Shown: piece by piece, positions 6,773 to 22,722 of the stretch
Layout of the letters: the number at the start of each line of letters is the position of its first letter
How positions within the stretch are numbered: position 1 is the stretch's first letter
NCBI GenBank assembly: GCA_965223295.1
Contig: CBDCWC010000003.1
Location: 896,001 to 960,000, forward strand
Length of the DNA: 64,000 nucleotides
Reading direction: 5' to 3'
Origin: Nitrospirales bacterium
GTDB taxonomy: Bacteria; Nitrospirota; Nitrospiria; Nitrospirales; UBA8639
The notes under the pieces: model-generated
Database searches by the model: none
The model's input: only the letters and a program-made list of their open reading frames with translations
What the model was told of the DNA's origin: nothing
Program-made: the position numbers and the translations under genes

Positions 6773-6854
6773 AACGATTCATTCATCAAGACATATCGAA
6801 TTGACGTAGCTATCTAACAGTCAAACAAATATTTAGAATGCTTAAAGGAACGCT

Positions 6855-8113: not shown

Positions 8114-8743
8114 CTAACTATCTTGTTCAGACGAACCTGTTAAAGCGGTCTGCAATTCCTCATACACTTGCATCAAACGCGAATCTTCTAAGCGATAGGC
8201 GAAAGCCAGGAGGATAACGCCACCTACCAACACGAGTAAACCCAAGGCTATCATTCCCATCCCCCAAAATATCCCCCCGACTGTTCCAAATCCTCCATCA
8301 ATCGCATACATGGCTAGAAATCCCAGCGTGCCCCCAATCACAAAAAGAAGCCAAATGGACGTCAGAATTGCAGAAGACCACGGGATTCGTTTGGATAATT
8401 GAAGTTCAAGCTGATCGTCCTGGAAGCGATAGTCCAGCGTTCCTTTCAAGGGCCATGCCGTTCGAAATCGTAAAGAAAACATTTTGTAATAAGGGCGAAT
8501 GACGATGGCTTGCTGATCCGCCACCCATCGAGCCACGCCATGAGGAAGCGGAATGGTACTGCTTGTTTTAAATATTCGAGGAAAGGAATTGTTTGGCTTG
8601 GGAAGTAAATCTTTGCGTCGGGCCAGTGGACATCCATAACGACAGGCCCAGGGCTTCAGCGTGGTGAATTGAAACCAGTCACCAATGACAAGGGCCAAAC
8701 CCATAACCAGAGCAAAAATACTGGGAAGCAACATAGGATTCAA
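8114..8743 (-). CDS. Hypothetical membrane protein
   Basis: 209-aa ORF with three hydrophobic segments. Confidence 0.7.
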   Translation of the reverse strand: MNPMLLPSIFALVMGLALVIGDWFQFTTLKPWACRYGCPLARRKDLLPKPNNSFPRIFKTSSTIPLPHGVARWVADQQAIVIRPYYKMFSLRFRTAWPLKGTLDYRFQDDQLELQLSKRIPWSSAILTSIWLLFVIGGTLGFLAMYAIDGGFGTVGGIFWGMGMIALGLLVLVGGVILLAFAYRLEDSRLMQVYEELQTALTGSSEQDS

Positions 8744-8795
8744 AACATATCACACGAAACCTTGAGACCACACGCAAGAAATTCATGAACTTTGA

Positions 8796-8825
8796 TTGAC
8801 TTCCATGTGATGCCTCTACTAGTAT
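8796..8825 (+). promoter_or_regulatory. Putative sigma70 promoter of the tRNA-fMet gene
   Basis: TTGACT (8796-8801), 18-nt spacer, TAGTAT (8820-8825), 5 nt before the tRNA. Confidence 0.5.
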
Positions 8826-8864
8826 CGATCCGCGGGGTGGAGCAGTCTGGTAGCTCGTTGGGCT

Positions 8865-9521
8865 CATTCCGTAGGATAATCTTGAGCACAAAGCTCAAAG
8901 GGGACATCGCAGAACAAACAGCCGTACTTCACGCTCTGAAGCATGGCTGGGGCGTTCTAAAACCACTAGGAGACCGATTGCCTTATGATCTGGTCTCTGA
9001 TGTTGGTGGGACGTTGGTGAAGGTCCAAGTCAAAGGAGCATGGTTCGATGAAAGTCGCGGCAACTTTATTGTGGACACTCGTCGAACAAAAACAAACCGT
9101 AGGAACATGGTTCGTGAGCCATATCTTCCATCGGATTTTGATTTTGCCCTTGCCTACCTTCAAGACTTTGACCTGTTCTATATATTCCCCGTTGAAGTGT
9201 TCATCAGTTATGCCAGTGAAATTCACCTGGTAGAAACTGACAAGCGGCAAAGAAAGCCACGGTCCGCTAAATACCGTAACGCTTGGGATCTCATCCTACA
9301 TTGGGCTGTACAGAAGGAAACTTCTGTATGAACACCTGTCAAATTCGGGGAAGCCACTAGCGGGGTAATCCCGAGCCAAGCTCTCTTAGTGCAAACAGCT
9401 GAGAGAGAAGGTGTAGAGACTTGATGGCAGGCACCCTAACGGCAGCGATGGCTGGCCGAGGGTGAAGGGAAAGTCCAGACCACAAACTGATCACTCAGGC
9501 AGCGGAAGCTGTAGTGGTACG
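8865..9521 (+). ncRNA. Group I self-splicing intron (657 nt) in the tRNA-fMet anticodon loop
   Basis: Follows U33 and ends in G. P1 GGCU|CA pairs with UGGGCU (9302-9307) giving a U.G at the splice site. P2 tacagaag-GAAA-cttctgta; P3 cctgtca/tggcagg; core elements aaattcgggg, aatcccgagc, gtagagact and aagtcc. Confidence 0.93.
8882..9331 (+). CDS. PD-(D/E)XK homing endonuclease, I-Ssp6803I-like, intron-encoded
   Basis: TTG start after an AGGA SD gives 149 aa: MSTKLKGDIAEQ..YDL..KVQVK..RRTKTNRR..EIHLVETDKRQRKPRS, which closely resembles the Synechocystis I-Ssp6803I sequence as I recall it. Confidence 0.9.
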   Translation: MSTKLKGDIAEQTAVLHALKHGWGVLKPLGDRLPYDLVSDVGGTLVKVQVKGAWFDESRGNFIVDTRRTKTNRRNMVREPYLPSDFDFALAYLQDFDLFYIFPVEVFISYASEIHLVETDKRQRKPRSAKYRNAWDLILHWAVQKETSV

Positions 9522-9584
9522 CATAACCCAAAGGTCGAGGGTTCAAATCCCTCCCCCGCAACCAAGAACATAGAATTGACTCTC

Positions 9585-9622
9585 AAGCCCTTGTCGGGGT
9601 CACCGACAAGGGCTTTTTTTTT
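9585..9622 (+). terminator. Rho-independent terminator after the tRNA
   Basis: aagcccttgtcgg-ggtca-ccgacaagggctt followed by a T tract. Confidence 0.9.
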
Positions 9623-9917
9623 GAATAGATCAATACGATATTTCGTCCTCCGAGAAAAAAAGATCCAAGTTTTCGAGGTTCCCAAGGGCATTCATTATCA
9701 GCAGGACGAGATAAGGCTCATGATATAGTATTCTTATATTTTATGAACCGTTCAATCTTACACCAATTTTACATCCCTCTTCGAAGCAACGTTCCTATAA
9801 CGGCAAAGTAGCTCTAAACGGTCCTAAAAATTTATCACCACAATATTTGACGTTAGTCAGAAGCCGAAAATTGTTTAGAATCGGAAGGCTAATTATTCAA
9901 AGAAAGACAGAAGTCAC

Positions 9918-11234
9918 TTGAAACGGATCTTTCGTATTGCCTGTATCTATGTGCCAATCGTGGCAGTGCTTGTGGTTCTAGGAACTGTTTATTTCGGCAT
10001 GGAGAACCAACCGGCAGTCACCTCGGTGAAAACCGTGACCACAGACGATGCCACACGTGCTCGGGCTTTGGCTAAACGGATTATCAAAGAAGTTCTTCAT
10101 GCTACGACTACAACAACCCTCATGTTAAACGAGAAAGATGTGGATGGCATTTTTGCCCTGATGAACCGGGCCGTGCCGAGGTTGGTTGGTGATGCCACCA
10201 TTTCCAGCCAGGGCTTGGACGCGGCCGTGACGTTTCAGTTACCCAGGAATCCACTTCGCAACTATGTGAATCTTCGTTTTGGTCTCAAGCCCTCAGCGAC
10301 CGGCCTTGATCTCGAGACAACGTCTCTTGGCCAAATCCCAGTCCCTGGCCCCCTGATGACATTTCTAATCCAACAGGGCGTCAACCTTACACTCGGCGAC
10401 AGTACCGGGTCGAAACTCATCCAGTCTGTCACGGCAGTGGAGTTTGAACGAGATATGGTGAAGTTTCAGATTGAACCCATGCCAGATTTGCGTGGTCGGT
10501 TAAAAGCCCTCTCAAAGAGCTTGGCCAAGGTGCGCAATGAAGTGGCGCTTCTTGGAAACCAGGAAGTCATTGGCCTCTATTATGCCAAGCTCGTCGAACT
10601 GGACAACATTGGCAGGGAACCTGACACGGCCTCGTTGGCAGATGTGTTGGGACCGCTTTTCCTTTTGGTGAAAGACCGTTCCAAGCTCGACGATCCGGCA
10701 ACTGAAAATCAGGCTGCGCTGTTAGCCTTGGTGCTGTACTTTGGAGACGCGCGCTTCGAGCGGTTAACGGGTCCCGTTCGCCAGGGTGCATTAAGAGGCC
10801 ACATTCCTCGCAATCGAGGGATTCGTTTGGGTGGACGTCGTGACTTGTTATTACATTTCATCATTTCCGCCGGGTTAAAATTGGTTAGCGATCAAGGCGT
10901 TGCCATGGCCATCGGAGAATTCAAAGAGCTGCTTGATTCTGACAGAGGAGGCACGGGGTTTAGTTTTGTTGATCTCGCCGCCGACAGGGCTGGTCTCCGC
11001 TTTGCAGAAATTGCGACTGGTCCAAATAGCGGTGCGCTCCATCTCATAAATGTTCTTGCTGGCAAGACAGATGAAAAAACATTTTTTCCCCATTTTCTCG
11101 ATCTTCCAGAGGGTCTATCCGAGAGTGCTTTCAAAAGCCGTTACGGTGACGTGAATGATCTCCGCTATGCATCGATAGTCGAGGAGATCGACAAGCGCCT
11201 AGCAAGAGCAGAAGCATATGCTGTGAGTTACTGA
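9918..11234 (+). CDS. Conserved hypothetical membrane-anchored protein
   Basis: 438-aa ORF, N-terminal TM, C-terminal 'HF..SA..GEFKELLDS..GGTGFSFVDLAADRAG' block. Confidence 0.75.
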   Translation: MKRIFRIACIYVPIVAVLVVLGTVYFGMENQPAVTSVKTVTTDDATRARALAKRIIKEVLHATTTTTLMLNEKDVDGIFALMNRAVPRLVGDATISSQGLDAAVTFQLPRNPLRNYVNLRFGLKPSATGLDLETTSLGQIPVPGPLMTFLIQQGVNLTLGDSTGSKLIQSVTAVEFERDMVKFQIEPMPDLRGRLKALSKSLAKVRNEVALLGNQEVIGLYYAKLVELDNIGREPDTASLADVLGPLFLLVKDRSKLDDPATENQAALLALVLYFGDARFERLTGPVRQGALRGHIPRNRGIRLGGRRDLLLHFIISAGLKLVSDQGVAMAIGEFKELLDSDRGGTGFSFVDLAADRAGLRFAEIATGPNSGALHLINVLAGKTDEKTFFPHFLDLPEGLSESAFKSRYGDVNDLRYASIVEEIDKRLARAEAYAVSY

Positions 11235-12501: not shown

Positions 12502-15500
12502 ATGCCTACCATCTACATCTCCTCCACTTACGAAGACCTGAAAGACTATCGGCAGATCGTGTTCGAGACACTGAGAAAAAGCGGGTATGAAGTCAAGGCC
12601 ATGGAAGAGTACGTGGCCTCGGATCGGCGACCCCTGGATCAATGTCTCAGGGACGTCGAGGAAGCCGATCTCTACGTAGGCCTGTTTGCCTTTCGATATG
12701 GTTATGTGCCTCCTGAGGGGCATGGCAACGCGAACAATTTATCAATTACCGAACTGGAACTCCGGCGAGCCGAAGACCTCAACAAACCTTGCTTAACATT
12801 TGTGATGGACAACACCACACCTTGGGCTCGAACATTTGATGACGCACACACAGCTGAGGACAAGGGCGAACGCATTCAAGCCTTGCGCCAGAACTTGCTG
12901 AGAGAGAAGCTGTGTAGCACATTTTCATCACCCAATCAGCTAGCAACCCTTGTGCTGACCGCTGTGACGAATCACTTTAAAGATAGGGAAAAAACTGATC
13001 GTCCTATAGCCCCTTCCATTTCAAAATCTAAAGGATCAGAACTGGAAGACAAACCCGTCGCTCCGATAATAATCAATACCTTTCCAAATGAAGTGCCGAT
13101 TAAATTTTATGGCCGTACCAAGGAAATGGATGTTTTGCAAAGACATTTGGCAGATAATGTAAGCTGTTTGCTAACAGTCTATGGGAGAAAAGGTTGTGGT
13201 AAAACGACGACTGTTTGCAAGGTTTTACAAACGATGATTGAGGATAGCCAAAGTCATAGTAGCAAAGAGAGGACTTCTATAGACGGGATAGTGTTTGTTA
13301 AAAATCGAGAGTCTCAGCCTGTGAGTTGGTTGACGATTTTTTCAGAAATACAAAACCTTTTGCCAGATCAAGAGAAAAGCCAATGGGAAACACTTTTTCA
13401 GATACAGGAAATCCCTCTTCAAAAAAAAATAGAACAATTGTTAAAGATTATTTCGCAAAAACGAATTGTGGTATTTATAGATCCTTTTGGTCCAATGGTC
13501 GATCAGGTTAATGGAAGTATTCGGGATCCCGATTTGTCTGAGGCCCTTCAAACTCTTCTGGAGACCCATGGGCACAGAATTAAAATTATCCTAACTTTGG
13601 AAAGTCCGTTGACGAAACTGTCCATGGTTAAGCCCTCACGGCAAGCATTTATTAATCTAAAAGATGGCCTTGGTGAGATTGAGTCGGAAACCATGCTCAG
13701 AGACTCTGATCACGATGGCTCTATCGGGCTCCAGAAGGCAGATCCACAAGTCATTGGAGAAATCTGCACAAGATTAAGAGGAAATCCAAGAGCTTTGATC
13801 AAATTAACGACTCTACTTCGGGTGAATCAAAGTATGAGGTTGAGTGATGTTAGTAACCACACAAAAGATCTACTTCCTCAAGAAATACTGGATGACTTAG
13901 TTGGGCAGGTATTTAGAAGCTTAGATACGCATAGTCGTATGGTGCTCCAAAGCATAGCAATTTTTGGACAACCTATCCCCAGAGAGGCAGTTGAATGGGT
14001 TCTCCGCTCCCATATCTCCCAAGATGTATTACCCGACCTACTTAATTCTCTGGTGAATCGTCGTTTGGTTAAAATGACCACAAAATGTTTTTCCTTAGAC
14101 TATGATGATCGTCAGTATGTCCTTTCCACTATACCAAATGTTTTTGGACAAACTTCCAAAAATCAGAGCAGTCAGGATTTTACAAGGGAGGGTTTGGGTC
14201 GCCTTGCGCGCAAGTATTATAGGAGCAATCGGGTACCTCCAGAGCAATGGAAATTTTTTAGCGATTTAGACTGTTATTTAGCTGAATTTGAGCTATTGAT
14301 AGAAAGCCGTATCTTCGAAGATGCAGTACAAATCTTATTTGAAATTGAGAATTGGCTTTTAAAAAATGGGCGAGATGACACCGTTGCTAAACTCTATTCA
14401 CAGATAAATGAGGAATGCTTGGAAAGTGAATCCAAACTTCGATATGCCAATAAACTTGGTAACATATACCACCGGTTAGGTAAGTTGGAGAAAGCGATTG
14501 CTTATTATCAAAAGGGGTTGAACTATACGCAGCATTTGAAAGAAAGAGAGAGGAAACGAAATGCTGAATTTAGATATTTAAGTAATTTGGGCATTTGCCA
14601 TAAAGAAAGTGGTGATCTGGATCTTGCAATTGCCTATTGCCGACAGTCTTTACATCTTGCCCAAGAGTTGAAAGATACCTCAAAGCAGGCTCATGTATTA
14701 AATACACTAAGTGACTGCAGAGGAAATATAGGTGAGATTTCTCAGGCTATAGAGGCATGTGAAAAAACTTTAAGTCTGGCACAATCTTGTGGATCGGAGT
14801 GGCAAGCGGCCTTAGCTCTGACAAACCTTGGTTTATATCATGGAGAACTCTGTGCTTTTGAGAAAGCCGTAGGATACTCTCAAGAAGCACTTTCATTATC
14901 ACATCTTATAGAATATCGGTTGGGTGAGGGGGCTGCGTTAATCAATCTAGGAGAAATGAATCTTGTTCAAAAAAAGTTTTCTGAAGCAATGACTTACTTC
15001 AACAAAGCCACTCAACTTTCTGACACGATAAAGAGAGCTGAACTCCAACAGAAATCCAGGGTGGGATTGGCTCTAACGCATCTATACAATGGAACTATCA
15101 AGATAGCCAGTGATTATTTACGGGAAGCCTGTGTGTATGAAATAAGAGGGTTTGATTTTTATGCCCTGAGCATCCAAGGAATTGTTGCGTTTGTTCATGG
15201 GGAAAATGACCTGGCAAAAGACTCATTTCATAAAGCTATTACTTGTGGAGAACAGATGTTGAGACGAGAACCGCGTTTTTATCTTGCATGGCTTGGAAAA
15301 GGAATTGCCCATTCTGGATTGTCTATAATAGAAAGGGATGAGTCTCATGCCGATTTCGCCAAAAAAGCCTTTCAGAAAGGAAAATACATTAACCCCAATA
15401 TTGGGATAATGAAAAAAACACAAATGGTGCTTGGGAAACTTGAAGAAGCTACTCCTATCCAGTTTCGACATGACATACAAGAAATAACCGGAATGGCCAG

Positions 15501-15504
15501 CTAA
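12502..15504 (+). CDS. DUF4062 (TIR/NDT-like) - STAND-type P-loop NTPase - TPR protein
   Basis: 'IYISSTYEDLKDYR..RYGYVP..SITELE' N-domain; 'FYGR..E', Walker A GRKGCGKT and 'GNPRAL' motifs; C-terminal TPRs (SNLGICH, TNLGLYH, INLGEMN). Confidence 0.85.
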   Translation: MPTIYISSTYEDLKDYRQIVFETLRKSGYEVKAMEEYVASDRRPLDQCLRDVEEADLYVGLFAFRYGYVPPEGHGNANNLSITELELRRAEDLNKPCLTFVMDNTTPWARTFDDAHTAEDKGERIQALRQNLLREKLCSTFSSPNQLATLVLTAVTNHFKDREKTDRPIAPSISKSKGSELEDKPVAPIIINTFPNEVPIKFYGRTKEMDVLQRHLADNVSCLLTVYGRKGCGKTTTVCKVLQTMIEDSQSHSSKERTSIDGIVFVKNRESQPVSWLTIFSEIQNLLPDQEKSQWETLFQIQEIPLQKKIEQLLKIISQKRIVVFIDPFGPMVDQVNGSIRDPDLSEALQTLLETHGHRIKIILTLESPLTKLSMVKPSRQAFINLKDGLGEIESETMLRDSDHDGSIGLQKADPQVIGEICTRLRGNPRALIKLTTLLRVNQSMRLSDVSNHTKDLLPQEILDDLVGQVFRSLDTHSRMVLQSIAIFGQPIPREAVEWVLRSHISQDVLPDLLNSLVNRRLVKMTTKCFSLDYDDRQYVLSTIPNVFGQTSKNQSSQDFTREGLGRLARKYYRSNRVPPEQWKFFSDLDCYLAEFELLIESRIFEDAVQILFEIENWLLKNGRDDTVAKLYSQINEECLESESKLRYANKLGNIYHRLGKLEKAIAYYQKGLNYTQHLKERERKRNAEFRYLSNLGICHKESGDLDLAIAYCRQSLHLAQELKDTSKQAHVLNTLSDCRGNIGEISQAIEACEKTLSLAQSCGSEWQAALALTNLGLYHGELCAFEKAVGYSQEALSLSHLIEYRLGEGAALINLGEMNLVQKKFSEAMTYFNKATQLSDTIKRAELQQKSRVGLALTHLYNGTIKIASDYLREACVYEIRGFDFYALSIQGIVAFVHGENDLAKDSFHKAITCGEQMLRREPRFYLAWLGKGIAHSGLSIIERDESHADFAKKAFQKGKYINPNIGIMKKTQMVLGKLEEATPIQFRHDIQEITGMAS

Positions 15505-16385
15505 AACCCTAAATAAGCAGTCTTTGGAAAGTGCCCTGTAATCCTGTATTTTTGGATTCTGACATCATCCCAGGTATCGCTAATTTGAATAGCTCGATTT
15601 ACCTCTACTTGGGTGGATGGGATCTTATGATCAGCAAGTGATAATGCTCTAGAATTACGAAAGCTTGATGTGAATTGGACAAGAGAAGGCTTGTTCCACC
15701 CTCCTGATTCATTTAGTGGATTACTCACCCGATCAACAAAATCCAACACCCATTCATAGGCTATCTGAGTATTTTCGTTCGGTAGGTCCGAAAGATCTTG
15801 AACAAGAATGGGTGAAGTATCAGTACGAGTACTGGAGACAGGGGAAAGGGTTGAAATTATATAGGGTCCTCTTCCAGGATTTTTCTTAATTTTAGCTAGA
15901 ATAGCTTGGGCCCGATTATAATTATAATGATCCAGAACCCACTGACTCCACCACCTCAAGTTTTCTTTTGTTGTTCGCTTCGAAGGCGCTTGAGGAATTT
16001 CCTCTGCTATAGGTATATACGTAACATTCAAACTCTCACGAGGGCTCCCCAGCTTCTCCAACCTTTCTACATTGGGAATTTCTCGAAGGCATGCTGCTAA
16101 GACCGACTGAAAGAGTCTAAAATTCTCTTGTGTTGGTGGAGCTTCTAAGAGTAGGTAACTATAAAGTCCGTATCCCTGCCCCTCCGGCTCATTACCCACC
16201 AAGAGGGCCTGACCCGTTTGCAATCCCTTTTCCCCCACCGCCTGTGTCGTGAAAGCCTTTCCAGTACAACCCCATGTTCCTGGCAATGCAAGAATGAGGA
16301 TTAAAGAAGAAAAAATGTATAAAAAGGCCCATCGATTCAAAGCGATAAAAAGAAAAGGGGTTGTTGCTTTATTAAAAGGTGGCAT
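15501..16385 (-). CDS. Hypothetical protein, possible lipoprotein
   Basis: Hydrophobic N-terminus ending TWGC; converges on the STAND gene with a 4-nt overlap. Confidence 0.65.
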   Translation of the reverse strand: MPPFNKATTPFLFIALNRWAFLYIFSSLILILALPGTWGCTGKAFTTQAVGEKGLQTGQALLVGNEPEGQGYGLYSYLLLEAPPTQENFRLFQSVLAACLREIPNVERLEKLGSPRESLNVTYIPIAEEIPQAPSKRTTKENLRWWSQWVLDHYNYNRAQAILAKIKKNPGRGPYIISTLSPVSSTRTDTSPILVQDLSDLPNENTQIAYEWVLDFVDRVSNPLNESGGWNKPSLVQFTSSFRNSRALSLADHKIPSTQVEVNRAIQISDTWDDVRIQKYRITGHFPKTAYLGF

Positions 16386-16623
16386 CGATATTAAGCACCT
16401 GATCTATACACAAGAAAAAGACACTCCCGTTCTGCGTGGGAGCAGAACTATCAGTACGTCTCTGGAGCTTCATATTTTTTACCAAGTCACTCTGATTGCT
16501 TCTCCCAGTCAACATACGGGGTTTAAACTCAGGTTTGATCCCTCCTCTTTTTATCCGTTCGAGAGAAAGCCCCCCTCTTTTTAAGAACAGGGCTTTACTC
16601 TCGGAGAAACTAGAATGGGCAAA

Positions 16624-17565
16624 TCAAACTGGACTTTCTTGCCCGGGCAGAGGTCGACTTGCACTCTGGCGCTCAGACTGTTCTAAGTTAAGGTAAATGT
16701 CTTTCGCATTGGATAGACAAACGTCATTAAGATTTTTTAGTCGATCTTCATTAATGGGATGTTCATCCAAAAAGTCAATTTCTTTATTGTTCTTATCAGG
16801 ATCTTTCTGCATACGGCGCCAGATACCTAAGGCTTTTTCAGGGTCATACCCTGCCTCAGCCGCCAGCTCTAACCCAATACAATCTGCATCCAATTCATCC
16901 TGTTTGTCCCAAACCATACGTGATCCCACCACATACCCTACCCCCAATGATCCGGCTAGGGGTAACATGATCTTAGGATCCATTTTTTTAGGGTTGAGGG
17001 CAGACCCAGCCATGATCCCACCTGCTCCCAGAGCTGCGACCGTATCTTTACTAATTCGCTTAAGTTCGTGTCTTTCCAAGGTGTGGGCAATTTCGTGCCC
17101 AAGAATCGCCGCTAGAGCTCCCTCGTTTTCGGCAGTCCTAAATACACCTTCGTAAACAGCAATCCCGCCACCTGAAAAGGCCTTGGCGAGTTTCTTGTTA
17201 TCATCTTTAATAATATTGAGTCGCCAATCAAAATCTTTGGCAACCTTTGCATACTTCGAATTGCGCTTAGCAACCTTTTTCAGCTGATCAAAAATGTTCT
17301 TGATCTGCTCCACAATCTTCTTATCCTCTTCAATTTGTTTCGCCTTTTTGCGATCAGAAATTTCCATATCATAGAAAGCATTTCCCAATTTGTACAATAA
17401 AGACGGAGGCATCTGGCTACCAGCTTTCCCCAATAGTTCTGATCCCAACTCAGAGGAACTGGATGTTCCTCCAACTGGAAGTCCAGGAAGATTTTCGCAT
17501 CCAAGAAAAAAAGAGGAAAAGAATAAGACTGCAGAAAAACCTAGCAGAAAGAAAAGATTTCGCAT
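16624..17565 (-). CDS. M48-family zinc metallopeptidase, lipoprotein
   Basis: HEIAH zinc motif, 'ELDAD.IG..AGYDP', lipobox FFLGC; likely start MRNLFF after a GGAGG SD. Confidence 0.88.
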   Translation of the reverse strand: MRNLFFLLGFSAVLFFSSFFLGCENLPGLPVGGTSSSSELGSELLGKAGSQMPPSLLYKLGNAFYDMEISDRKKAKQIEEDKKIVEQIKNIFDQLKKVAKRNSKYAKVAKDFDWRLNIIKDDNKKLAKAFSGGGIAVYEGVFRTAENEGALAAILGHEIAHTLERHELKRISKDTVAALGAGGIMAGSALNPKKMDPKIMLPLAGSLGVGYVVGSRMVWDKQDELDADCIGLELAAEAGYDPEKALGIWRRMQKDPDKNNKEIDFLDEHPINEDRLKNLNDVCLSNAKDIYLNLEQSERQSASRPLPGQESPV

Positions 17566-17903
17566 GGGATGACCTCCGTGTCTTGAGGGTGAAGAAACTT
17601 CTTGAAGTAGAATCACTTCATTATCATTTCTATGGAGAAATCTTAGGAAAGTCGGCGAATAATAGCAATGTTGCTTTTATTCTGTTAGTTCAAGAAGAAA
17701 ATCCGTTGATTTGAGAAAAGCAAGGAGTTCATAAATTGGGAAATTCGACCGCCGCTCCCTTTCTTGTCTATATTTAAACAAAATGCTACCATTTTTCTCG
17801 TTTAGTTCATTTTTAAGGTATGCAACTCACCTCAATGATAACTCTGTGGCCTTAAATATCCCGATATACTTTGTAGTAGAAACCCCGTTGAGGAGTTCTG
17901 CCA

Positions 17904-18512
17904 ATGAAAAATCCTACTTCATCTTTTCAATCAGGCTCGCAGTCTAGAAGTGCCAATTCCCCCGATTCGAAAGACGCCTCAAAAGGAATTAATGTGCAGT
18001 ATGAACAAGTTGAAAGTCTAGATAAGGTCAGAGAGATCCTTTTTGGAACTCAGGCCAAGAATTTCGAAAACCAATTCCAACGGTTAGAAGACAGAATAAA
18101 TCGTGAAGCAGAAGAAATTAAAGATGATCTGAAGGTTCGTCTTGATGCATTGGAGAGTTTTGTGAAGAAGGAATTGGAAATGGTCTCACAACAGGCGAAG
18201 GCGGAACAAGCACAGCGATTAAACTTAGAGACTAAATTCTCGAAGGAAATAAAGGAATTGCAGAAACTTGTAGGAAGTAAATTTACCTATGTTGAGGAAC
18301 AGTCATTGAAAGGACACAAGGAACTTCGGCAACAAATCCTTGATCAAAATAAAACATTGTCCAACGAAATTCAAAGCAGAAACAATTCCTTGAAGGAGTC
18401 GCTTGCTCAGGACAATCAGGAGCTAAAAGACGTCAAAGTAAGTCGAGTATTGTTGGCTGAATTGCTCATGAATTTGGCGGCAGACTTAAATGACAAGGTT
18501 AAAGTTTCTTAA
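17904..18512 (+). CDS. Coiled-coil protein (first gene of the small-GTPase module)
   Basis: 'LDKVREILFG' followed by long heptad-rich helices; GAGGAG SD. Confidence 0.8.
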   Translation: MKNPTSSFQSGSQSRSANSPDSKDASKGINVQYEQVESLDKVREILFGTQAKNFENQFQRLEDRINREAEEIKDDLKVRLDALESFVKKELEMVSQQAKAEQAQRLNLETKFSKEIKELQKLVGSKFTYVEEQSLKGHKELRQQILDQNKTLSNEIQSRNNSLKESLAQDNQELKDVKVSRVLLAELLMNLAADLNDKVKVS

Positions 18513-18624
18513 AGCATACCCATGCCTCCTTGATATGGCTGAGTTGGGATTCTCTTTGCTTTCCTAAAACCTGAATCTTTTTAATTTGGCCAATGTTGCC
18601 CCCTCCTGAAAATAGATAGGGCGT

Positions 18625-20619
18625 TTGTTCATGGCCAAGACCCCAGAAAAAGAAATAGGCCAAGATAGGGCTTCTGCCAGAATTTCTCCTTCCGCCATGG
18701 CCCTCGAAGAACTTCGGCAGCTGCTTCTGGCTCCGGAGCAAGCACAACTTGGAAAGATGAAAGAGCGGCTTGATGCGCTCAACATAGGGCCTACCGAAGT
18801 TGGTGATGTCTTATCAGAGGCTATCCGCTACCAGTCTCAAAAGAATAATGACCTAAAAGACTCTCTGACGCCTATCATACAAGATGAGTTTAGCGAAACA
18901 TTTCCCGGAGCCTTTAAGCGCTCTGTTAGAGAAACGCCTGGCATCATATCGGACGCTGTCTCCCCAATACTCGTACCCACTCTGAATAAAGAATTTCAAA
19001 GAGAATTTCCTCAAACATTCCTGCGGGCAGTAAAAGAGAATCCAAACGCTTTGGCTGAAGCTGTCAGCCCCATCATCATGTCAGCATTGGGAAAATGGAT
19101 ACAGAAACAAATCGAAGAAAAGGTTCAAGTAGTGTCCCAATCGAAAATTGGTGAACTGGTCCAAACCGTGAACCAAGCCCTGGAAAAGGAGTCCCCTATT
19201 CAACGGTTGAAATGGCGATGGCAAGCTTTCTGCACAGGAATGCCTTATGAGGATATTCGTCAGGCCTACTTATTTGCACATTTCAAAGTGATGCATGTGT
19301 TCCTCATCCATGCAAAAACTGGGATTTTATTAAATAGAATATCAGGGCGTGATGAGACAGATCTACGTGAAGACATTGTTGCAAGCATGTTAGGGGCCGT
19401 AAAAAAAGTCCTTGAAGACATTGGAGAGAAAACAGATCCAAATGAGAATGATCGACTCCAAGTGTTAGAATTCCAAAAGAAAAGATTTTATATCGAAATG
19501 GGGCAAGATGCTCTTATAGCTGTGGTGATCAAACAAGATCCTCCTCCAAAATGGAGAGAAACAATACGGGAGACCCTTAGAGTTATTCACCAGAAATTTG
19601 GTTCTAAGCTTGAAAAGTTTAACGGAAACATGGATGGGTATGAACAAACTACTCCTTTCCTCGAACAAATATTAGATAGTCCACGAAACTCTGAAAATGA
19701 AACTTTCAAGAATAAGAAAATTTCAAAAAGCTGGCTAGCTGTGGCAGGAGTCATTCTACTGTTGGGGTATTGGATTGGAGTAGGAATTTATAACAACTAT
19801 ATTTGGAACAAGTTCGTAGGACTTGTCCAGGATTTTGATGAAAATGAGGTAGGTTTATTTATTACCACCGTGGGAAAAGATGCAGAAGACAAACTCTCAA
19901 TCAAAGGATTTTTGGCTCCATCATTTGAAAGAGAAGAATTGGAAACAGGTATTAGAAAAATTGGGGAATCCGTCGGAATAAATCCCCATTCCCTTGATTT
20001 TAATTTCACACCATTTTTCCCTCTTTCACCTGAATATGTTCTGCGATTGGCTAAAGCACTTCTTGCCCCACCTGATTCCGTCAAACTTTTGGTGATAAAC
20101 GATGGGGTTTTACAAGCATCTGGAGTGGCAAGTGTGGCTTGGATAAACGATTTTCGCACCCGGGCAAAGTACTTGCCTGGAATTTCCACGATAAAAGAAG
20201 AAAAGCTCCATTATCGAGGGCAAAGAAAAATGCTTGAACTTAAGAAGACTATTGAGAGTTTTGAATTATATTTTCCTCGGGGAGAGAGCATTGTCAATCG
20301 AGATTCAGACCAACAGATTGAAACCTTATCAAAAAATATCGTGCACCTTGATAGGATCGCTGATGAGATTAAGGGGAAAATAGTATTAGAGATTCATGGG
20401 CATGCGAGCCAAGATGGCTCCTCAGAACTTAACGAGCGAATCAGTTTGCAAAGAGCCAAGAATTTGAAGAATGCGCTCAACCTTTTTGAACTACAAAATA
20501 TTGAAATTCGGACAAAAGCAAAAGGTACTCAATTCCTAGAAAAGTTTAGGGAGAAAGGTGAGGAAAAGAATTTTATGACAAACCGAAGAATTTCACTTCA
20601 CGTTCTCACTCAAGAATGA
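18625..20619 (+). CDS. Inner-membrane protein: helical repeats, roadblock/longin-like domain, TM helix, C-terminal OmpA-like peptidoglycan-binding domain
   Basis: 'HVFLIHAKTGILL..DIVASMLGAV' segment; TM 'WLAVAGVILLLGYWIG'; 'IHGHAS.DGS.ELN.RIS.QRA' and 'NRRI' OmpA motifs. Confidence 0.8.
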   Translation: MFMAKTPEKEIGQDRASARISPSAMALEELRQLLLAPEQAQLGKMKERLDALNIGPTEVGDVLSEAIRYQSQKNNDLKDSLTPIIQDEFSETFPGAFKRSVRETPGIISDAVSPILVPTLNKEFQREFPQTFLRAVKENPNALAEAVSPIIMSALGKWIQKQIEEKVQVVSQSKIGELVQTVNQALEKESPIQRLKWRWQAFCTGMPYEDIRQAYLFAHFKVMHVFLIHAKTGILLNRISGRDETDLREDIVASMLGAVKKVLEDIGEKTDPNENDRLQVLEFQKKRFYIEMGQDALIAVVIKQDPPPKWRETIRETLRVIHQKFGSKLEKFNGNMDGYEQTTPFLEQILDSPRNSENETFKNKKISKSWLAVAGVILLLGYWIGVGIYNNYIWNKFVGLVQDFDENEVGLFITTVGKDAEDKLSIKGFLAPSFEREELETGIRKIGESVGINPHSLDFNFTPFFPLSPEYVLRLAKALLAPPDSVKLLVINDGVLQASGVASVAWINDFRTRAKYLPGISTIKEEKLHYRGQRKMLELKKTIESFELYFPRGESIVNRDSDQQIETLSKNIVHLDRIADEIKGKIVLEIHGHASQDGSSELNERISLQRAKNLKNALNLFELQNIEIRTKAKGTQFLEKFREKGEEKNFMTNRRISLHVLTQE

Positions 20620-20644
20620 GAACAGAATTAGGGTACTTACTTCT

Positions 20645-21226
20645 ATGATTAAATATAGGGTATGCCTTATTGGTGCAACTGCGGTAGGAAAAACAGCTAT
20701 TTTTCATAGGCTATTAACAGGATACTTTGATCCGAATTATGTTACGACTATTGGAGTAGCTACAGATGAGTACATCTATAAAGATGAGGAAACGGAAGTC
20801 CATTTAAATTTAATTGATACAGAAGGTCACGATGGTTTTCAGGCGCTTAGGTTAGACCACCTTAAAGATTCACATGGGTATTTTTTAGTTATCGATGGAA
20901 CTCGTATTGAGACGCTCGAGATTGCAACCCTACTCCTCGAAAAGGCAAAAAACTTACTTGGAAATGCAGTGCCTTTTGTGTGTTTGATGAATAAGTATGA
21001 TCTAAGAAATCTTTGGAAGATAGATGAAAAGACGGTGAATATCCTGAAGAAAGAAGGATGGGATATATTTGAAACCAGTGCGAAATCTGGGGAAGGATTA
21101 GTAAAAGCCATGAGAGCTTTGGTGAAAGAAATTATACACAGCATGGCATTGGCAAAAAACCATGGTGAGGTGGTGGACCCTGTCAAGGCTTCAATGGAAA
21201 AAATGATTAGAGAGCTGGATTCATAA
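20645..21226 (+). CDS. Rab/Ras-like small GTPase (prokaryotic Rup-type)
   Basis: G1 GATAVGKT, G2 YVTTIG, G3 DTEG, G4 NKYD, G5 TSAK; standalone, 193 aa. Confidence 0.92.
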   Translation: MIKYRVCLIGATAVGKTAIFHRLLTGYFDPNYVTTIGVATDEYIYKDEETEVHLNLIDTEGHDGFQALRLDHLKDSHGYFLVIDGTRIETLEIATLLLEKAKNLLGNAVPFVCLMNKYDLRNLWKIDEKTVNILKKEGWDIFETSAKSGEGLVKAMRALVKEIIHSMALAKNHGEVVDPVKASMEKMIRELDS

Positions 21227-21445
21227 ACTACAAGACAGTACTAGCTTTTCAAAGCAAGTGGGGTGGGAACTTCGGGAAAGCACAGAAGTGGAACACAAAA
21301 AAGCAATGCAGCGCGTTTTCTCCCTTATATGAAAATTTCCAATATTCTAAAGAACGTCGCATGTTCGAGAAAGGACAGAGTAGCCTGTCGGATAAAATTG
21401 AAAACAGAAGATTTCGAACACCAATAGTCACTTTCTTGGTAAAGA

Positions 21446-22687
21446 GTGATTCACTGTATGGAAGAATCTGATACAAAATCTCACATCATATTTAATCTGT
21501 CAGACGACATCTTCCCAGACTTAGACCTTCTCTCCCTCAAGTGGGTTGATCCCCCCGGCATTCTGCAGGTTGTTGGGAAAGTTCCTCAATGGCTATCTTC
21601 GTTTCAAATAGATCCTCATCATAATTTTTCACCCCTACAATTTATACAGCAATCGCATCTCCTTAAACATGCTTTCGCGAGGGCGCAAGAGTTCTGGAAT
21701 CGGCAAGAAGATGGCCAATGGAGGTCCGGTCCGCTGCAGGAACCCAAATTCATGGGAAGTAATATGCGCCTAGAAGCTACTGCCTTTCTCATTGGGCAAG
21801 AAAAATTTCTCCATATCAAAAAGTTGGGTTGGGAGTTTGACGAACTTCGGCGTGGAAGACAACAGCAGAGGGAAGCACTTCTCTTAAAGAGAAGTGAACC
21901 CGAGAAAGTTGAATTAAAATATTACGATGGACCTGATTTAATCGGGAAAAGTCCATCGATGCAAAATATCTATTCTCAAATCAAGGAAATTGCTTTTGGA
22001 GGGAAAACGATTTTGATTGAGGGTGAGCCTGGCACTGAGAAAGAATTGGTAGCGCGGGCCATTCATTCCGCAGGTCCTCGCAAAAAAGCTCCCTTTATCC
22101 TGTCAAAACCTGAAGATTTTTTAAAGAGAGGCTTAAAAGCCAGACAGTCAGACTCTACAGAAATGTTACAAGAGAAGTGGTCGCTTCACGATTTAATATG
22201 CGTCAAAAAAGCTAAAGAAGGGACTCTTTTCGTAAAATCCTTTGAAAAAATTTTGGAGAATGATGATAAAATTTTTTCTCGAGAAATTTTTCCGGGGATG
22301 AAAGCAAAACGATCAGAGAGTATTGCCGAAACTCCACATGTTCTGCAATGGGTTTTGGCGGTCAACTGCCCTCTCAAAAAGTTAGTGGCTAAAAACTTTC
22401 TTGATCTCGATATTCTCTGTCAAACAAGTATTAACTGGCTCCAAATCCCCGCCCTAAGATACCGGAAGGAAGATATCCCTCTCCTCTGTACACAATTTTT
22501 AGCCCACCGTCGTGTCAGGACCGGAAAGTGGAGGATTCAAGAAATAGAAGAAAATGCTTTAGATCGACTCTGTGCCTACGAATGGCCTGGCAATGTGGAT
22601 GAACTGAAACAAGCGCTTTACCAAGCATTCGATCAATGTAGAGGGGAGAAAATTCAAGTAGACGATCTTCCCTCCACTGTCATCTGA
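21446..22687 (+). CDS. Degenerate sigma54-interaction (bEBP-like) protein with an N-terminal sensory domain
   Basis: 'LIGKSPSM', 'GEPGTEKELVARAIH', 'PALRYRKEDIP' and 'WPGNVDEL' present; no GAFTGA, Walker B altered, no HTH. Confidence 0.8.
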   Translation: MIHCMEESDTKSHIIFNLSDDIFPDLDLLSLKWVDPPGILQVVGKVPQWLSSFQIDPHHNFSPLQFIQQSHLLKHAFARAQEFWNRQEDGQWRSGPLQEPKFMGSNMRLEATAFLIGQEKFLHIKKLGWEFDELRRGRQQQREALLLKRSEPEKVELKYYDGPDLIGKSPSMQNIYSQIKEIAFGGKTILIEGEPGTEKELVARAIHSAGPRKKAPFILSKPEDFLKRGLKARQSDSTEMLQEKWSLHDLICVKKAKEGTLFVKSFEKILENDDKIFSREIFPGMKAKRSESIAETPHVLQWVLAVNCPLKKLVAKNFLDLDILCQTSINWLQIPALRYRKEDIPLLCTQFLAHRRVRTGKWRIQEIEENALDRLCAYEWPGNVDELKQALYQAFDQCRGEKIQVDDLPSTVI

Positions 22688-22722
22688 ACCGGTTCAACGA
22701 ACGCTAAAAATATTTCGAAATT

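What the first reader, a model, noticed from the sequence alone, without database searches (positions are those of the whole stretch)
17904..22687. Four-gene bacterial Rab-like GTPase module: coiled-coil protein, roadblock/longin-TM-OmpA protein, small GTPase, pseudo-bEBP
Seen: co-oriented AT-rich genes. The GTPase has all five Ras-superfamily G motifs. Its upstream partner joins a cytoplasmic segment resembling roadblock/longin folds to one TM helix and a peptidoglycan-binding OmpA domain. Known: roadblock and longin domains act as GAPs/GEFs for small GTPases (MglB; eukaryotic Rab and Rag regulators), and prokaryotic Rup GTPases are functionally uncharacterised. Inference: a cell-wall-anchored trans-envelope GTPase switch with a coiled-coil scaffold and a downstream signalling output, possibly for polarity or envelope sensing. 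This is the best candidate here for an undescribed system.
Basis: partly seen in the sequence, partly recalled or inferred. Interest (0 to 1): 0.85.

Follow-up and report, generated by a model that had tools for sequence, protein, structure and literature searches.

The report
Diverged Rup GTPase envelope-signalling cassette copy
These four genes are a fast-evolving second copy of a bacterial signalling cassette catalogued by genome comparison in 2014, for which I found no experiments: a Ras/Rab-like GTPase sits beside a cell-wall-anchored membrane protein whose cytoplasmic domain is predicted to fold like eukaryotic longin GTPase platforms, and its fourth gene is a conserved sigma-54 activator that is likely catalytically dead.

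Summary
Four co-oriented ORFs lie at the stated coordinates. The GTPase has all five G motifs. The 664-aa partner has one TM helix and an OmpA domain.

An AlphaFold model of its residues 221-355 matches longin domains best (Sec22b, Z 13.1) and roadblock/MglB less well (Z 10.2).

The system is not undescribed. It is the "Group 1 Rup" neighbourhood of Wuichet & Søgaard-Andersen 2014 (DUFY, DUFX:OmpA, Rup, output), and their Table S2 lists a Nitrospira example. I found no experimental study. This scan met the same cassette before on other DNA (11 earlier findings in at least 10 genomes).

What is specific to this window:
- It is a diverged paralogue of an intact cassette about 290 kb away in the same genome, whose fourth gene is a full sigma-54 activator.
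- Both trees place it inside the Nitrospirota clade.
- It lies in a ~10 kb stretch with no listed DNA match in 30 same-genus genomes.
- Its fourth protein keeps the family's PAS-like N-domain, including the invariant Gln. It has lost Walker B, GAFTGA, the arginine finger, the PAS domain and the HTH.
- That protein is nevertheless 86% identical to its one known orthologue, so it is constrained.

GTPase binding could not be tested because the complex predictor was unavailable.

The parts
17904..18512 (+). g1: 202-aa cytoplasmic helical (coiled-coil-type) protein, the 'DUFY' of Group 1 Rup systems
   Evidence: ORF. Pfam gave only sub-threshold matches to helical families (Apolipoprotein, SF-assemblin). 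It is 29% identical to the paralogue p1. My own HMM found a homologue just upstream of the membrane protein in 77 of 80 loci. The conserved motif K-x-R-[DE]-I-L-F-G-x-Q sits at residues 41-50.
18625..20619 (+). g2: 664-aa inner-membrane protein ('DUFX:OmpA'): helical N-region, longin-like domain, one TM helix, periplasmic region, OmpA-like domain. Its probable start is 18631.
   Evidence: It is 28% identical to the paralogue p2. A profile search found 2476 representative clusters at E<=1e-30. No Pfam family covers the N-terminal ~450 residues in 13 members scanned.
19246..19710 (+). Longin-like domain of g2 (residues 208-362: a leading helix, then beta-beta-alpha-beta-beta-beta-alpha-alpha)
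   Evidence: AlphaFold2 model m59e6c60bbd68. Foldseek PDB gave 25 matches at E<=1e-3. VIA-align gave Sec22b longin Z 13.1 (rmsd 2.7, 125 aligned), Fuzzy 12.6, VAMP7 12.4, MglB 10.2.
19726..19803 (+). Single transmembrane helix of g2 (residues ~368-393), N-terminus predicted inside the cell
   Evidence: Hydrophobic stretch WLAVAGVILLLGYWIGVGIY preceded by KNKKISKS. The model shows helix 368-393. Topology is inferred from the positive-inside rule.
20338..20532 (+). OmpA-like peptidoglycan-binding domain of g2 (Pfam match at residues 572-636)
   Evidence: PF00691, 32.6 bits against a cut-off of 27.2. G592, G598, N603, R610 and R654 are each conserved in >=94 of 101 relatives.
20645..21226 (+). 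g3: 193-aa Rup1-type Ras/Rab-like GTPase. G1-G5 are intact. His stands at the position of Ras Gln61 and Thr at that of Ras Gly12.
   Evidence: It is 42% identical to the paralogue p3.
21446..22687 (+). g4: 413-aa output protein (probable start 21458): a PAS-like N-domain plus a degenerate sigma-54-activator AAA+ module, with no DNA-binding domain
21446..21895 (+). N-domain of g4 (residues 1-150), the domain shared by the outputs of Rup1 systems. Q139 and R142 lie in its C-terminal helix.
   Evidence: Model m61a873958de7, pLDDT 85.8. Its best structural matches are PAS/LOV domains, at middling scores. Q139 is invariant in 47 of 47 and in 65 of 66 sequences, the 66th being a gap.
21938..22678 (+). 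Degenerate AAA+ core and lid of g4 (residues 165-411)
   Evidence: Aligned with six intact orthologue-type bEBPs. Walker A is GEPGTEKE (others GETGTGKE). The GAFTGA stretch is absent. Walker B DE is replaced by KS. FRADLLYR is replaced by FLDLDILCQ. AAA_lid_14 scores 66.8 bits.

Best explanation
The four genes are a diverged paralogous copy of a Group 1 Rup (Rup1) small-GTPase cassette, which likely works as a trans-envelope signalling switch.

Shown:
- All four proteins are homologous to those of an intact cassette elsewhere in the same genome and to cassettes in several phyla.
- The membrane protein carries a domain predicted to have a longin-type fold, one TM helix and an OmpA-like domain.
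- The GTPase has complete nucleotide-binding motifs but no catalytic Gln.
- The output proteins of the family share one N-terminal domain, predicted to be PAS-like, fused to many different effector domains.
- In two relatives the GTPase is fused to that N-domain.

Inferred:
- The periplasmic, wall-bound part of the membrane protein would sense an envelope state.
- Its cytoplasmic longin-like domain, probably as a dimer, would dock the GTPase and set its nucleotide state.
- The GTP-bound GTPase would bind the PAS-like N-domain and switch the attached effector.

In the primary copy the effector is a sigma-54 transcription activator. In the window's copy the AAA+ module has lost its Walker B, its sigma-54-contact loop, its arginine finger and its DNA-binding domain, but remains under constraint. 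This copy would therefore act not as an activator but as a GTPase-binding regulator. It might act as a sink or GAP-like partner for its own GTPase, or as a modulator of the primary activator.
For: Identity as a Rup1 cassette:
- The 2014 paper's description matches gene for gene. Its Table S2 lists Ca. Nitrospira defluvii NIDE0273 as '<Rup<DUFX:OmpA<DUFY'.

Paralogy:
- g1-g4 against L025 p1-p4 are 29, 28, 42 and 35/31% identical, in the same order.

Synteny:
- 19 of 19 close loci.
- 7 of 9 loci from the second family, picked's best matches, have a full bEBP.
- Of 80 loci from Nitrospirota, Acidobacteriota, Gemmatimonadota, Cyanobacteriota, Thermodesulfobacteriota and others, 77 have the coiled-coil gene, 74 the GTPase, 54 the N-domain gene and 52 all four. 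Four of the six loci without a GTPase hit have about 1.1 kb or less of contig beyond the membrane-protein gene.

Folds:
- Longin fold.
- PAS-like N-domain.

Modular outputs on the same N-domain:
- hybrid histidine kinases, SpoIIE, HD-GYP, and sigma-54 activators.

Fourth genes in which my N-domain HMM found no match:
- PP2C, a nucleotide cyclase, a HATPase_c protein, and PAS-only proteins.

Other points:
- GTPase-N-domain fusions of 337 and 365 aa occur in L028 and L026.
- No Gln follows the G3 glycine: His in the window, and E/D/A/R in 77 of 90 relatives.
- Dead AAA+ motifs.
- Constraint: the orthologue P0155 is 353/409 identical with no gaps, whereas the membrane protein's orthologue P0002 is only 60% identical. 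Both are reported with a longest contig of 18375 bases.
- Trees of the membrane protein and of the GTPase both put the window's genes with the other 'second copies' inside the Nitrospirota clade.
Against:
- No expression data exist for this locus.
- Both folds rest on AlphaFold models. The PAS-like assignment has only middling scores: best Z 8.5, and no Foldseek match at E<=1e-3.
- The window's proteins have lost many residues that are >=90% conserved in the family. g2 has lost 15 or more, such as E223M, Q224H and F262V. g3 has W57I. g4 has W97L and F76A, and a Walker A G->E change not shared by its orthologue. This could mean decay rather than a new role.
- Q139 and R142 lie in a long helix of the model, not in a loop, which fits a signalling helix better than a catalytic finger.
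- I found no sigma-54 promoter that would define a regulon.
Confidence: 0.6

Rival explanations
1. The window's copy is a decaying, functionless duplicate in a variable genomic island. On this view the dead AAA+ domain and the lost invariant residues are early pseudogenisation.
For: - Many family-invariant residues are replaced in g2, g3 and g4.
- Walker A G->E occurs in this genome only.
- Both trees give the window's genes long branches.
- GC is low, 0.40-0.41.
- None of the 150 listed DNA matches from 30 same-genus genomes falls in window ~12.97-22.7 kb, while the right flank (from the RRM gene onward) matches well. A further 111 weaker matches were not listed.
Against: - All four ORFs are intact.
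- G1-G5 of the GTPase are all kept.
- g4 is 86% identical to its orthologue over 409 residues without a gap. The lost Walker B, GAFTGA and HTH are shared by both, so the loss is old and the protein has been kept since.
- Most substitutions at invariant sites of g2 are shared with P0002 and P0003.
- The N-domain keeps Q139, R142, P47, W49 and E110.
Confidence: 0.15
2. The output N-domain, not the longin-like domain, is the GTPase-activating partner. It would supply the missing catalytic glutamine (Q139), perhaps together with R142, in trans, as Wuichet & Søgaard-Andersen speculated. The longin-like domain would be only a membrane docking platform or an exchange factor.
For: - The GTPases lack the G3 Gln (paper section 17).
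- Q139 is invariant in 47 of 47 and R142 is present in 63 of 66.
- Stand-alone N-domain proteins (L029, L030) and GTPase-N-domain fusions (L026, L028) show that the domain is kept even without any effector.
Against: - In the model, Q139 and R142 lie about ten residues into helix 129-150, which continues into the downstream domain. That position is typical of a signalling linker.
- No complex model or assay is available.
Confidence: 0.2
3. The module is an MglA/MglB-type cell-polarity or motility switch.
For: - The fold is related to MglB (Z 10.2).
- A small GTPase is encoded next to it.
Against: - Pfam's best match for the GTPase is Ras, and its closest solved relatives are Ran/Rab/Ras.
- The 2014 classification separates Rup from MglA.
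- The partner is an integral membrane protein anchored to the cell wall, not a soluble MglB dimer.
- The fourth genes of the family encode transcription, phosphorelay, phosphatase and nucleotide-signalling domains.
Confidence: 0.05

Closest known systems
Group 1 Rup (Rup1) GTPase gene neighbourhood (Wuichet & Søgaard-Andersen 2014, Genome Biol Evol 7:57, PMC4316618; sections 16-18 and Table S2 read)
   Same: The four gene types occur in the same order: coiled-coil DUFY, DUFX-TM-OmpA, a Rup GTPase without the G3 glutamine, and an output protein whose N-terminal region holds an invariant Gln. A Nitrospira example is listed.
   Different: - The paper names diguanylate cyclase/phosphodiesterase proteins or histidine kinases as the typical outputs. 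Here the family's output is a sigma-54 activator, and in the window a dead one.
- The paper left DUFX and the N-region without a fold. Here they model as longin-like and PAS-like.
- The window holds a second, fast-evolving paralogue.
MglA/MglB of Myxococcus xanthus and Thermus thermophilus (PDB 3t12, 1j3w, 6hjm)
   Same: A small Ras-superfamily GTPase is encoded beside a protein of the roadblock/longin structural superfamily that regulates it (MglB is a GAP according to the abstracts). Structural match Z 10.2 over 108 residues.
   Different: - MglB is a small soluble roadblock dimer with no TM helix or OmpA domain.
- MglA belongs to a separate GTPase family.
- The g2 domain matches longin domains better (Z 12-13).
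- The MglA/MglB output is polarity and motility, not a fused signalling enzyme.
Eukaryotic longin-domain GTPase platforms: Mon1-Ccz1 (Ypt7/Rab7 GEF; 5ldd, 9rs7), Fuzzy-Inturned/CPLANE with Rab23 (9rs9, 7q3d), TRAPP subunits, and the SRX domain of SR-alpha
   Same: The beta-beta-alpha-beta-beta-beta-alpha-alpha fold is the same (Z 10-12.6), and it is partnered with a Rab/Ras-like GTPase.
   Different: There is no detectable sequence similarity (3-18% identity in the structural alignments). The bacterial domain is part of a wall-anchored inner-membrane protein. Whether it exchanges, activates or merely docks is unknown.
Actinobacterial conservon (CvnA-D; Mfp)
   Same: It is a four-gene signalling unit built around a small GTPase and a roadblock-fold protein with a membrane sensor. 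The 2014 authors draw the same analogy.
   Different: Its GTPase is MglA-type. Its sensor is a histidine kinase, and the roadblock protein is a separate soluble protein. It has no OmpA anchor, no coiled-coil DUFY and no shared PAS-like output domain.
Sigma-54 enhancer-binding proteins (NtrC/NifA class)
   Same: g4's AAA+ core and lid align over 246 residues at 35% identity with the paralogous activator. The AAA_lid_14 match is strong.
   Different: Walker B, GAFTGA, the arginine finger and the HTH_8 domain are missing. It cannot be filed as a working activator.

Membership tests
Group 1 Rup (Rup1) system | Single-domain Ras-superfamily GTPase with eukaryote-like G1-G5 motifs | tested here: met
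   Pfam Ras 85.3 bits. G10, G15, K16, D58, G61, N116, K117, D119, S145 and A146 are each invariant in 90 of 90 relatives and present in g3.
Group 1 Rup (Rup1) system | No catalytic glutamine after the G3 DxxG glycine | tested here: met
   g3 reads DTEGH. Among 90 relatives the commonest residues at that position are E 52, D 15, A 5 and R 5; the other 13 were not printed. The paper's statement is in section 17.
Group 1 Rup (Rup1) system | Adjacent gene for a protein with a conserved unknown domain, an inner-membrane helix and a C-terminal OmpA domain (DUFX:OmpA) | tested here: met
   g2. It is immediately upstream of the GTPase in 74 of 80 surveyed loci.
Group 1 Rup (Rup1) system | Adjacent gene for a cytoplasmic coiled-coil protein (DUFY) | tested here: met
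   g1 homologues were found in 77 of 80 loci. The coiled-coil character itself rests only on sub-threshold Pfam matches to helical families and on the paper; no coiled-coil predictor was run.
Group 1 Rup (Rup1) system | Fourth gene: an output protein whose N-terminal region holds an invariant glutamine | tested here: met
   Q139 of g4 is invariant in 12 of 12 and 47 of 47, and present in 65 of 66 with one gap. I could not see the paper's logo figure, so identity with their glutamine is inferred.
Longin domain | beta-beta-alpha-beta-beta-beta-alpha-alpha topology and close structural match to solved longin domains | tested here: met
   Model elements are E222-229, E235-240, H249-267, E279-283, E286-292, E296-302, H308-330 and H339-362. 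Sec22b gives Z 13.1, rmsd 2.7, 125 of 127 residues aligned. This is a predicted structure, not a solved one.
Longin domain | Binds a small GTPase, as a platform, GEF or GAP | not testable with these tools
Roadblock/LC7 (MglB-like) | alpha-beta-beta-alpha-beta-beta-beta fold and a sequence match to Robl_LC7 | tested here: inconclusive
   There are structural matches: Z 10.4 (9jue), 10.2 (3t12_B) and 9.9 (3kye). A helix (208-219) precedes the first strand, as in roadblock. Pfam returned no Robl_LC7 match at E<=0.1.
OmpA-like peptidoglycan-binding domain | Pfam OmpA above the gathering score, with the conserved Asn/Arg positions | tested here: met
   32.6 bits against 27.2. N603, R610 and R654 are conserved in 97, 98 and 94 of 101 relatives. 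Peptidoglycan binding itself was not tested.
Sigma-54 enhancer-binding protein | Walker A and B, the GAFTGA sigma-54-contact loop and an arginine finger in the AAA+ core | tested here: not met
   Walker A reads GEPGTEKE, there is no GAFTGA, DE is replaced by KS, and FRADLLYR by FLDLDILCQ. Pfam Sigma54_activat matches only positions 1-55 of 168.
Sigma-54 enhancer-binding protein | C-terminal HTH_8 (Fis-type) DNA-binding domain | tested here: not met
   The protein ends right after the AAA lid (DDLPSTVI). It has no HTH_8 match, whereas the relatives L042 and L117 have one.
PAS domain (for the output N-domain) | Five-stranded antiparallel sheet with flanking helices, and a sequence match to PAS families | tested here: inconclusive
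   In the wide VIA search the listed matches are mostly PAS/LOV domains, but at Z 8.5-5.4. The best Foldseek match is E 3.8e-3. Pfam gave no PAS match in residues 1-160.

The most novel reading that the evidence does not exclude
Longin-fold platforms paired with Rab/Ras-like GTPases are not an archaeal and eukaryotic speciality. They form an ancient, widespread bacterial trans-envelope switch, with thousands of protein clusters across many phyla. In Nitrospirota this switch has been duplicated, and the second copy has turned its sigma-54 activator into a conserved pseudo-ATPase. Under control of its own GTPase, that pseudo-ATPase tunes or poisons the primary activator.
Probability: 0.15. Interest if true: 0.75.

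Novelty: new variant of a known kind. Interest (0 to 1): 0.42.

Why it matters
Rup1 GTPases are the bacterial group that clusters with eukaryotic Rab/Ras/Rho/Ran and Asgard RasL proteins (bioRxiv 10.1101/2024.02.28.582541, passages read). I found no experimental study of one.

A 2024 paper states that roadblock/longin proteins are sporadic in bacteria and are thought to be of archaeal origin (PMC10933270, passage read). If the unnamed domain of the membrane partner really is a longin-type GTPase platform, that view needs revising. The family has 2476 representative clusters at E<=1e-30. It would also give a simple bacterial system in which to study how a longin platform controls a Ras-like switch.

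The window adds a natural experiment: two paralogous cassettes in one genome, one with a working sigma-54 activator and one with a conserved dead one. This bears on how duplicated signalling pathways are insulated or cross-regulated.

As a discovery of a new system it does not stand, because the cassette has been in print since 2014.

Tried and rejected
- **Complex prediction** (two copies of g2 residues 178-365 with g3). The tool's queue was full throughout the session and no complex was folded. Nothing can be said on binding from this.
- **Word-index homologue search for g2**. It returned only 6 proteins, which I first read as rarity. The exhaustive profile search showed this was a limit of the word index.
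- **First related-loci call with alignment A1**. It failed for lack of a conserved stretch. It worked with A2.
- **Sigma-54 promoter search, TGGCAC-N5-TTGC with up to 2 mismatches.** The window gave 64 matches against 57.4 expected. L025 gave 14 against 14.8 expected. I found no conserved GG-N10-GC element upstream of the DUF481 gene in 18 loci, nor upstream of the coiled-coil gene in 23 loci. No regulon was identified.
- **Sigma-70 promoter and terminator scan**. Nothing rose above the shuffled controls. Operon structure is inferred from orientation and short gaps only.
- **Expression.** No RNA holder is listed for this stretch. Four DNA holders come from one study.
- **Fusions among the 150 best representative proteins.** None carried the coiled-coil, GTPase or N-domain.
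- **Atlas look-up of g1**. It gave only unnamed clusters or clusters auto-named 'OmpH', with no Pfam family.
- **Cross-phylum transfer of the window's copy.** Rejected: both trees place it inside the Nitrospirota clade. These are FastTree and quick IQ-TREE trees with long branches, so the exact sister group is unsure.
- **Literature.** Searches for later work on Rup systems or on a bacterial longin-OmpA protein found no experimental study and no fold assignment. The library lacks most subscription journals.

Full report
**1. The observation**

One search lists four co-oriented ORFs at exactly the stated coordinates. I call them g1 to g4:
- g1, 17904-18512, 202 aa
- g2, 18625-20619, 664 aa
- g3, 20645-21226, 193 aa
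- g4, 21446-22687, 413 aa

The region is AT-richer than its surroundings: GC is 0.40-0.41, against 0.45-0.51 elsewhere.

Pfam gives:
- Ras, 85.3 bits, for g3
- OmpA, 32.6 bits against a cut-off of 27.2, at residues 572-636 of g2
- only the first 55 of 168 positions of Sigma54_activat, plus AAA_lid_14, for g4
- nothing above threshold for g1

The five G motifs of g3 can be read directly: GATAVGKT, T35, DTEG, NKYD and SAK. All sit at columns that are invariant or nearly so in 90 relatives.

**2. A second cassette in the same genome**

A Pfam Ras search of the whole assembly found another small GTPase about 290 kb away. A profile of g2 found a second homologue right beside it. Reading that locus (L025) shows the same four genes in the same order:
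- a 208-aa helical protein
- a 588-aa membrane protein
- a 166-aa GTPase
- a 588-aa sigma-54 activator with an N-domain, a PAS domain, an AAA+ core and an HTH

Identities between the window's genes and this paralogue are 29, 28 and 42% for the first three. For the fourth they are 35% over the AAA+ module and 31% over the N-domain. The whole unit was therefore duplicated.

**3. Distribution and synteny**

In the order, 69 of 201 sampled genomes have a homologue of the membrane protein. All 19 of the 19 close loci fetched show the four genes colinear, and all are closer to the paralogue than to the window's genes.

Of 9 loci from the second family picked's best matches, 7 have a full-length activator and 2 have none within 5 kb.

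An exhaustive profile search found 7600 representative proteins at E<=1e-3 and 2476 at E<=1e-30. The weaker tail may be OmpA-only matches. The 150 best all match the N-terminal part of the profile. The six hits of the word-index search were thus a limit of that tool, not rarity.

It returned 80 loci from Nitrospirota, Acidobacteriota, Gemmatimonadota, Cyanobacteriota, Thermodesulfobacteriota, a Mariprofundus and others. I searched these with HMMs built from the Nitrospirales cassettes:
- 77 of 80 loci have the helical protein.
- 74 have the GTPase.
- 54 have the N-domain gene.
- 52 have all four.

Four of the six loci without a GTPase hit have about 1.1 kb or less of contig beyond the membrane-protein gene; the other two have more room.

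**4. It is already in print**

Wuichet & Søgaard-Andersen (Genome Biol Evol 2014/2015, PMC4316618) describe the 'Group 1 Rup' neighbourhood. I read sections 16-18 and searched the supplements. The neighbourhood they describe has four parts:
- a coiled-coil cytoplasmic protein
- a protein with a conserved unknown domain, an inner-membrane helix and an OmpA domain
- a Rup GTPase that lacks the G3 glutamine
- an output protein, typically a diguanylate cyclase/phosphodiesterase or a histidine kinase, whose N-terminal region holds an invariant glutamine

They speculate that this glutamine is supplied in trans, and they propose a complex signalling system. Their Table S2 lists Candidatus Nitrospira defluvii NIDE0273 as '<Rup<DUFX:OmpA<DUFY'. 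They state that no Rup protein had been characterised.

My searches for later work found no experimental study and no fold assignment for DUFX. The library lacks most subscription journals.

This scan's own notes show the same cassette was met before on other DNA: 11 earlier findings in at least 10 genomes, with the same reading. I read them only after reaching mine.

**5. Fold of the unknown domain**

An AlphaFold2 model of g2 residues 1-394, built with 71 aligned relatives, has mean pLDDT 75.4. Over most of residues 190-350 the pLDDT is 86-97.

Residues 222-362 form beta-beta-alpha-beta-beta-beta-alpha-alpha, preceded by a helix at 208-219. Foldseek against the PDB gave 25 matches at E<=1e-3. 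Those I read are adaptor sigma/mu subunits, Sec22b, Rag C-terminal domains, MglB, Mon1-Ccz1 and LC7.

VIA-align ranks longin domains first:
- Sec22b, Z 13.1, rmsd 2.7, 125 of 127 residues aligned
- Fuzzy, Z 12.6
- VAMP7, Z 12.4
- a Lokiarchaeal longin domain, Z 12.4

Roadblock proteins come lower: Z 10.4 for an Asgard roadblock, 10.2 for MglB and 9.9 for a Streptomyces roadblock.

The domain looks more longin than roadblock. No Pfam family covers it in 13 members scanned.

**6. The output protein**

Aligned with six intact activators, g4 shows the following differences:
- It lacks the PAS domain.
- Walker A reads GEPGTEKE in place of GETGTGKE.
- There is no GAFTGA.
- Walker B DE is replaced by KS.
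- FRADLLYR is replaced by FLDLDILCQ.
- The protein ends right after the AAA lid, with no HTH.

It is not decaying freely, however. Its one known orthologue (P0155) is 353/409 identical without a gap, ends at the same residue, and shares the lost Walker B, GAFTGA and HTH, though it keeps GEPGTGKE. That both come from one contig is my inference.

The N-terminal 150 residues are the domain shared by the family's outputs. Q139 is invariant in 47 of 47 and R142 is present in 63 of 66.

The model of this domain (pLDDT 85.8) is helix, two strands, helices, three long strands, then a long helix that carries Q139 and R142. In the wide VIA search the listed matches are mostly PAS/LOV domains, but at middling scores: best Z 8.5, best Foldseek E 3.8e-3. 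I call it PAS-like, not PAS.

**7. Modularity and fusions**

The same N-domain precedes hybrid histidine kinases, a SpoIIE phosphatase, an HD-GYP domain and sigma-54 activators in different lineages. In loci where my N-domain HMM found no match, the gene after the GTPase carries PP2C, a nucleotide cyclase, a HATPase_c domain, or PAS domains only.

Among the 'second copies' in the order, the fourth gene takes reduced forms:
- It is the N-domain alone, 164-165 aa, in L029 and L030.
- It is the N-domain plus PAS in L027.
- The N-domain is fused to the C-terminus of the GTPase in L028 (337 aa) and L026 (365 aa).

The fusions are the best evidence I have that the GTPase and the N-domain work together physically.

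**8. Origin of the window's copy**

A FastTree tree of 101 membrane proteins puts all Nitrospirota rows in one clade (support 100). The window's protein groups with P0002, P0003 and L027, next to the other second copies. A quick IQ-TREE tree of 90 GTPases agrees. Branches are long, so the exact sister group is unsure. Transfer from another phylum is not indicated.

At DNA level, none of the 150 listed matches from 30 same-genus genomes falls between about window 12.97 and 22.7 kb. Genes from the RRM gene (22.7 kb) onward match at 70-85%. A further 111 weaker matches were not listed. The cassette therefore sits at the edge of a variable stretch.

The window's proteins have replaced many residues that are >=90% conserved in the family:
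- g2: E223M, Q224H, F262V, F267G, R475L and others
- g3: W57I
- g4: W97L, F76A

Most of the g2 changes are shared with P0002 and P0003. Concerted change in all partners fits a paralogous pathway insulated from the primary one, but this is inference.

**9. Mechanism**

Shown: the anatomy, the conservation, the modular outputs and the fusions.

Inferred:
- The wall-bound periplasmic part senses an envelope state.
- The longin-like domain docks the GTPase and sets its nucleotide state.
- The GTP form engages the PAS-like N-domain and switches the effector.
- In the window, the effector is a constrained pseudo-ATPase that would act as a regulator rather than an activator.

The main rival for the catalytic step is that the N-domain supplies Gln139 in trans. 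The position of Q139 inside a long helix makes me rate that lower, but I could not test it.

**10. Verdict**

It is a known kind (Group 1 Rup), not an undescribed system.

New here, as far as my searches reach:
- the longin-type and PAS-like fold assignments
- sigma-54 activators as the Nitrospirota output
- a second paralogous lineage with reduced or dead outputs
- the GTPase-N-domain fusions

Noticed in passing
L025 (G000:C3:617000-634000), genes at 10598-11224, 8693-10459, 8181-8681 and 6239-8005, all on the minus strand: This is the intact primary Rup1 cassette of the same genome. Its fourth gene is a full sigma-54 activator with N-domain, PAS, AAA+ and HTH. It is the copy shared with most relatives.
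   Followed up: yes
L025 4920-5978 (-), and the same position in 18 other Nitrospirales loci (for example L042 9465-10520): A DUF481 protein (Pfam 164.9 bits), which I recall as an outer-membrane family, is conserved just downstream of the primary activator in 18 loci across both families of the order. It may be a fifth member or a target of the cassette. I found no conserved sigma-54 promoter in front of it.
   Followed up: partly
L025 11848-12210 (-), and 12 other loci: A 120-aa cysteine-rich protein with no Pfam match is conserved (67-92% identity) upstream of the coiled-coil gene of the primary cassette in 12 loci; the record titles I saw name them Nitrospira, Nitrospirales or Nitrospirota.
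   Followed up: no
L028 3955-4968 (-) and L026 3877-4974 (-): Natural fusions of the Rup GTPase to the output N-domain (337 and 365 aa) occur in second-copy cassettes of two genomes of the same order.
   Followed up: partly
window ~12970-22700: A stretch of roughly 10 kb holds the STAND NTPase, an unknown ORF, an M48 peptidase and the four-gene cassette. It has no listed DNA match in 30 same-genus genomes, while the right flank (RRM protein, glucose-6-phosphate dehydrogenase and onward) is conserved. The right boundary falls just after g4's stop codon.
   Followed up: partly
window 12502-15504 (+): A 1000-aa protein combines DUF4062, a STAND/NB-ARC-type NTPase and TPR repeats. I recall this architecture from conflict or defence systems. 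It is not part of the conserved cassette.
   Followed up: no
window 18545-18559 (+): TGGGATTCTCTTTGC lies in the gap between g1 and g2 and has the GG-N10-GC spacing of a sigma-54 promoter, with two mismatches to the consensus. Matches of this quality are no more frequent in the window than in shuffled sequence.
   Followed up: partly
g2 residues ~94-165 (window ~18904-19119): The window-type membrane proteins (g2, P0002, P0003) carry an extra copy of a ~40-residue helical repeat (EF..FP..F...V.E.P....DAVSPI) that the primary type lacks. This is why the profile matched g2 in two overlapping pieces.
   Followed up: no
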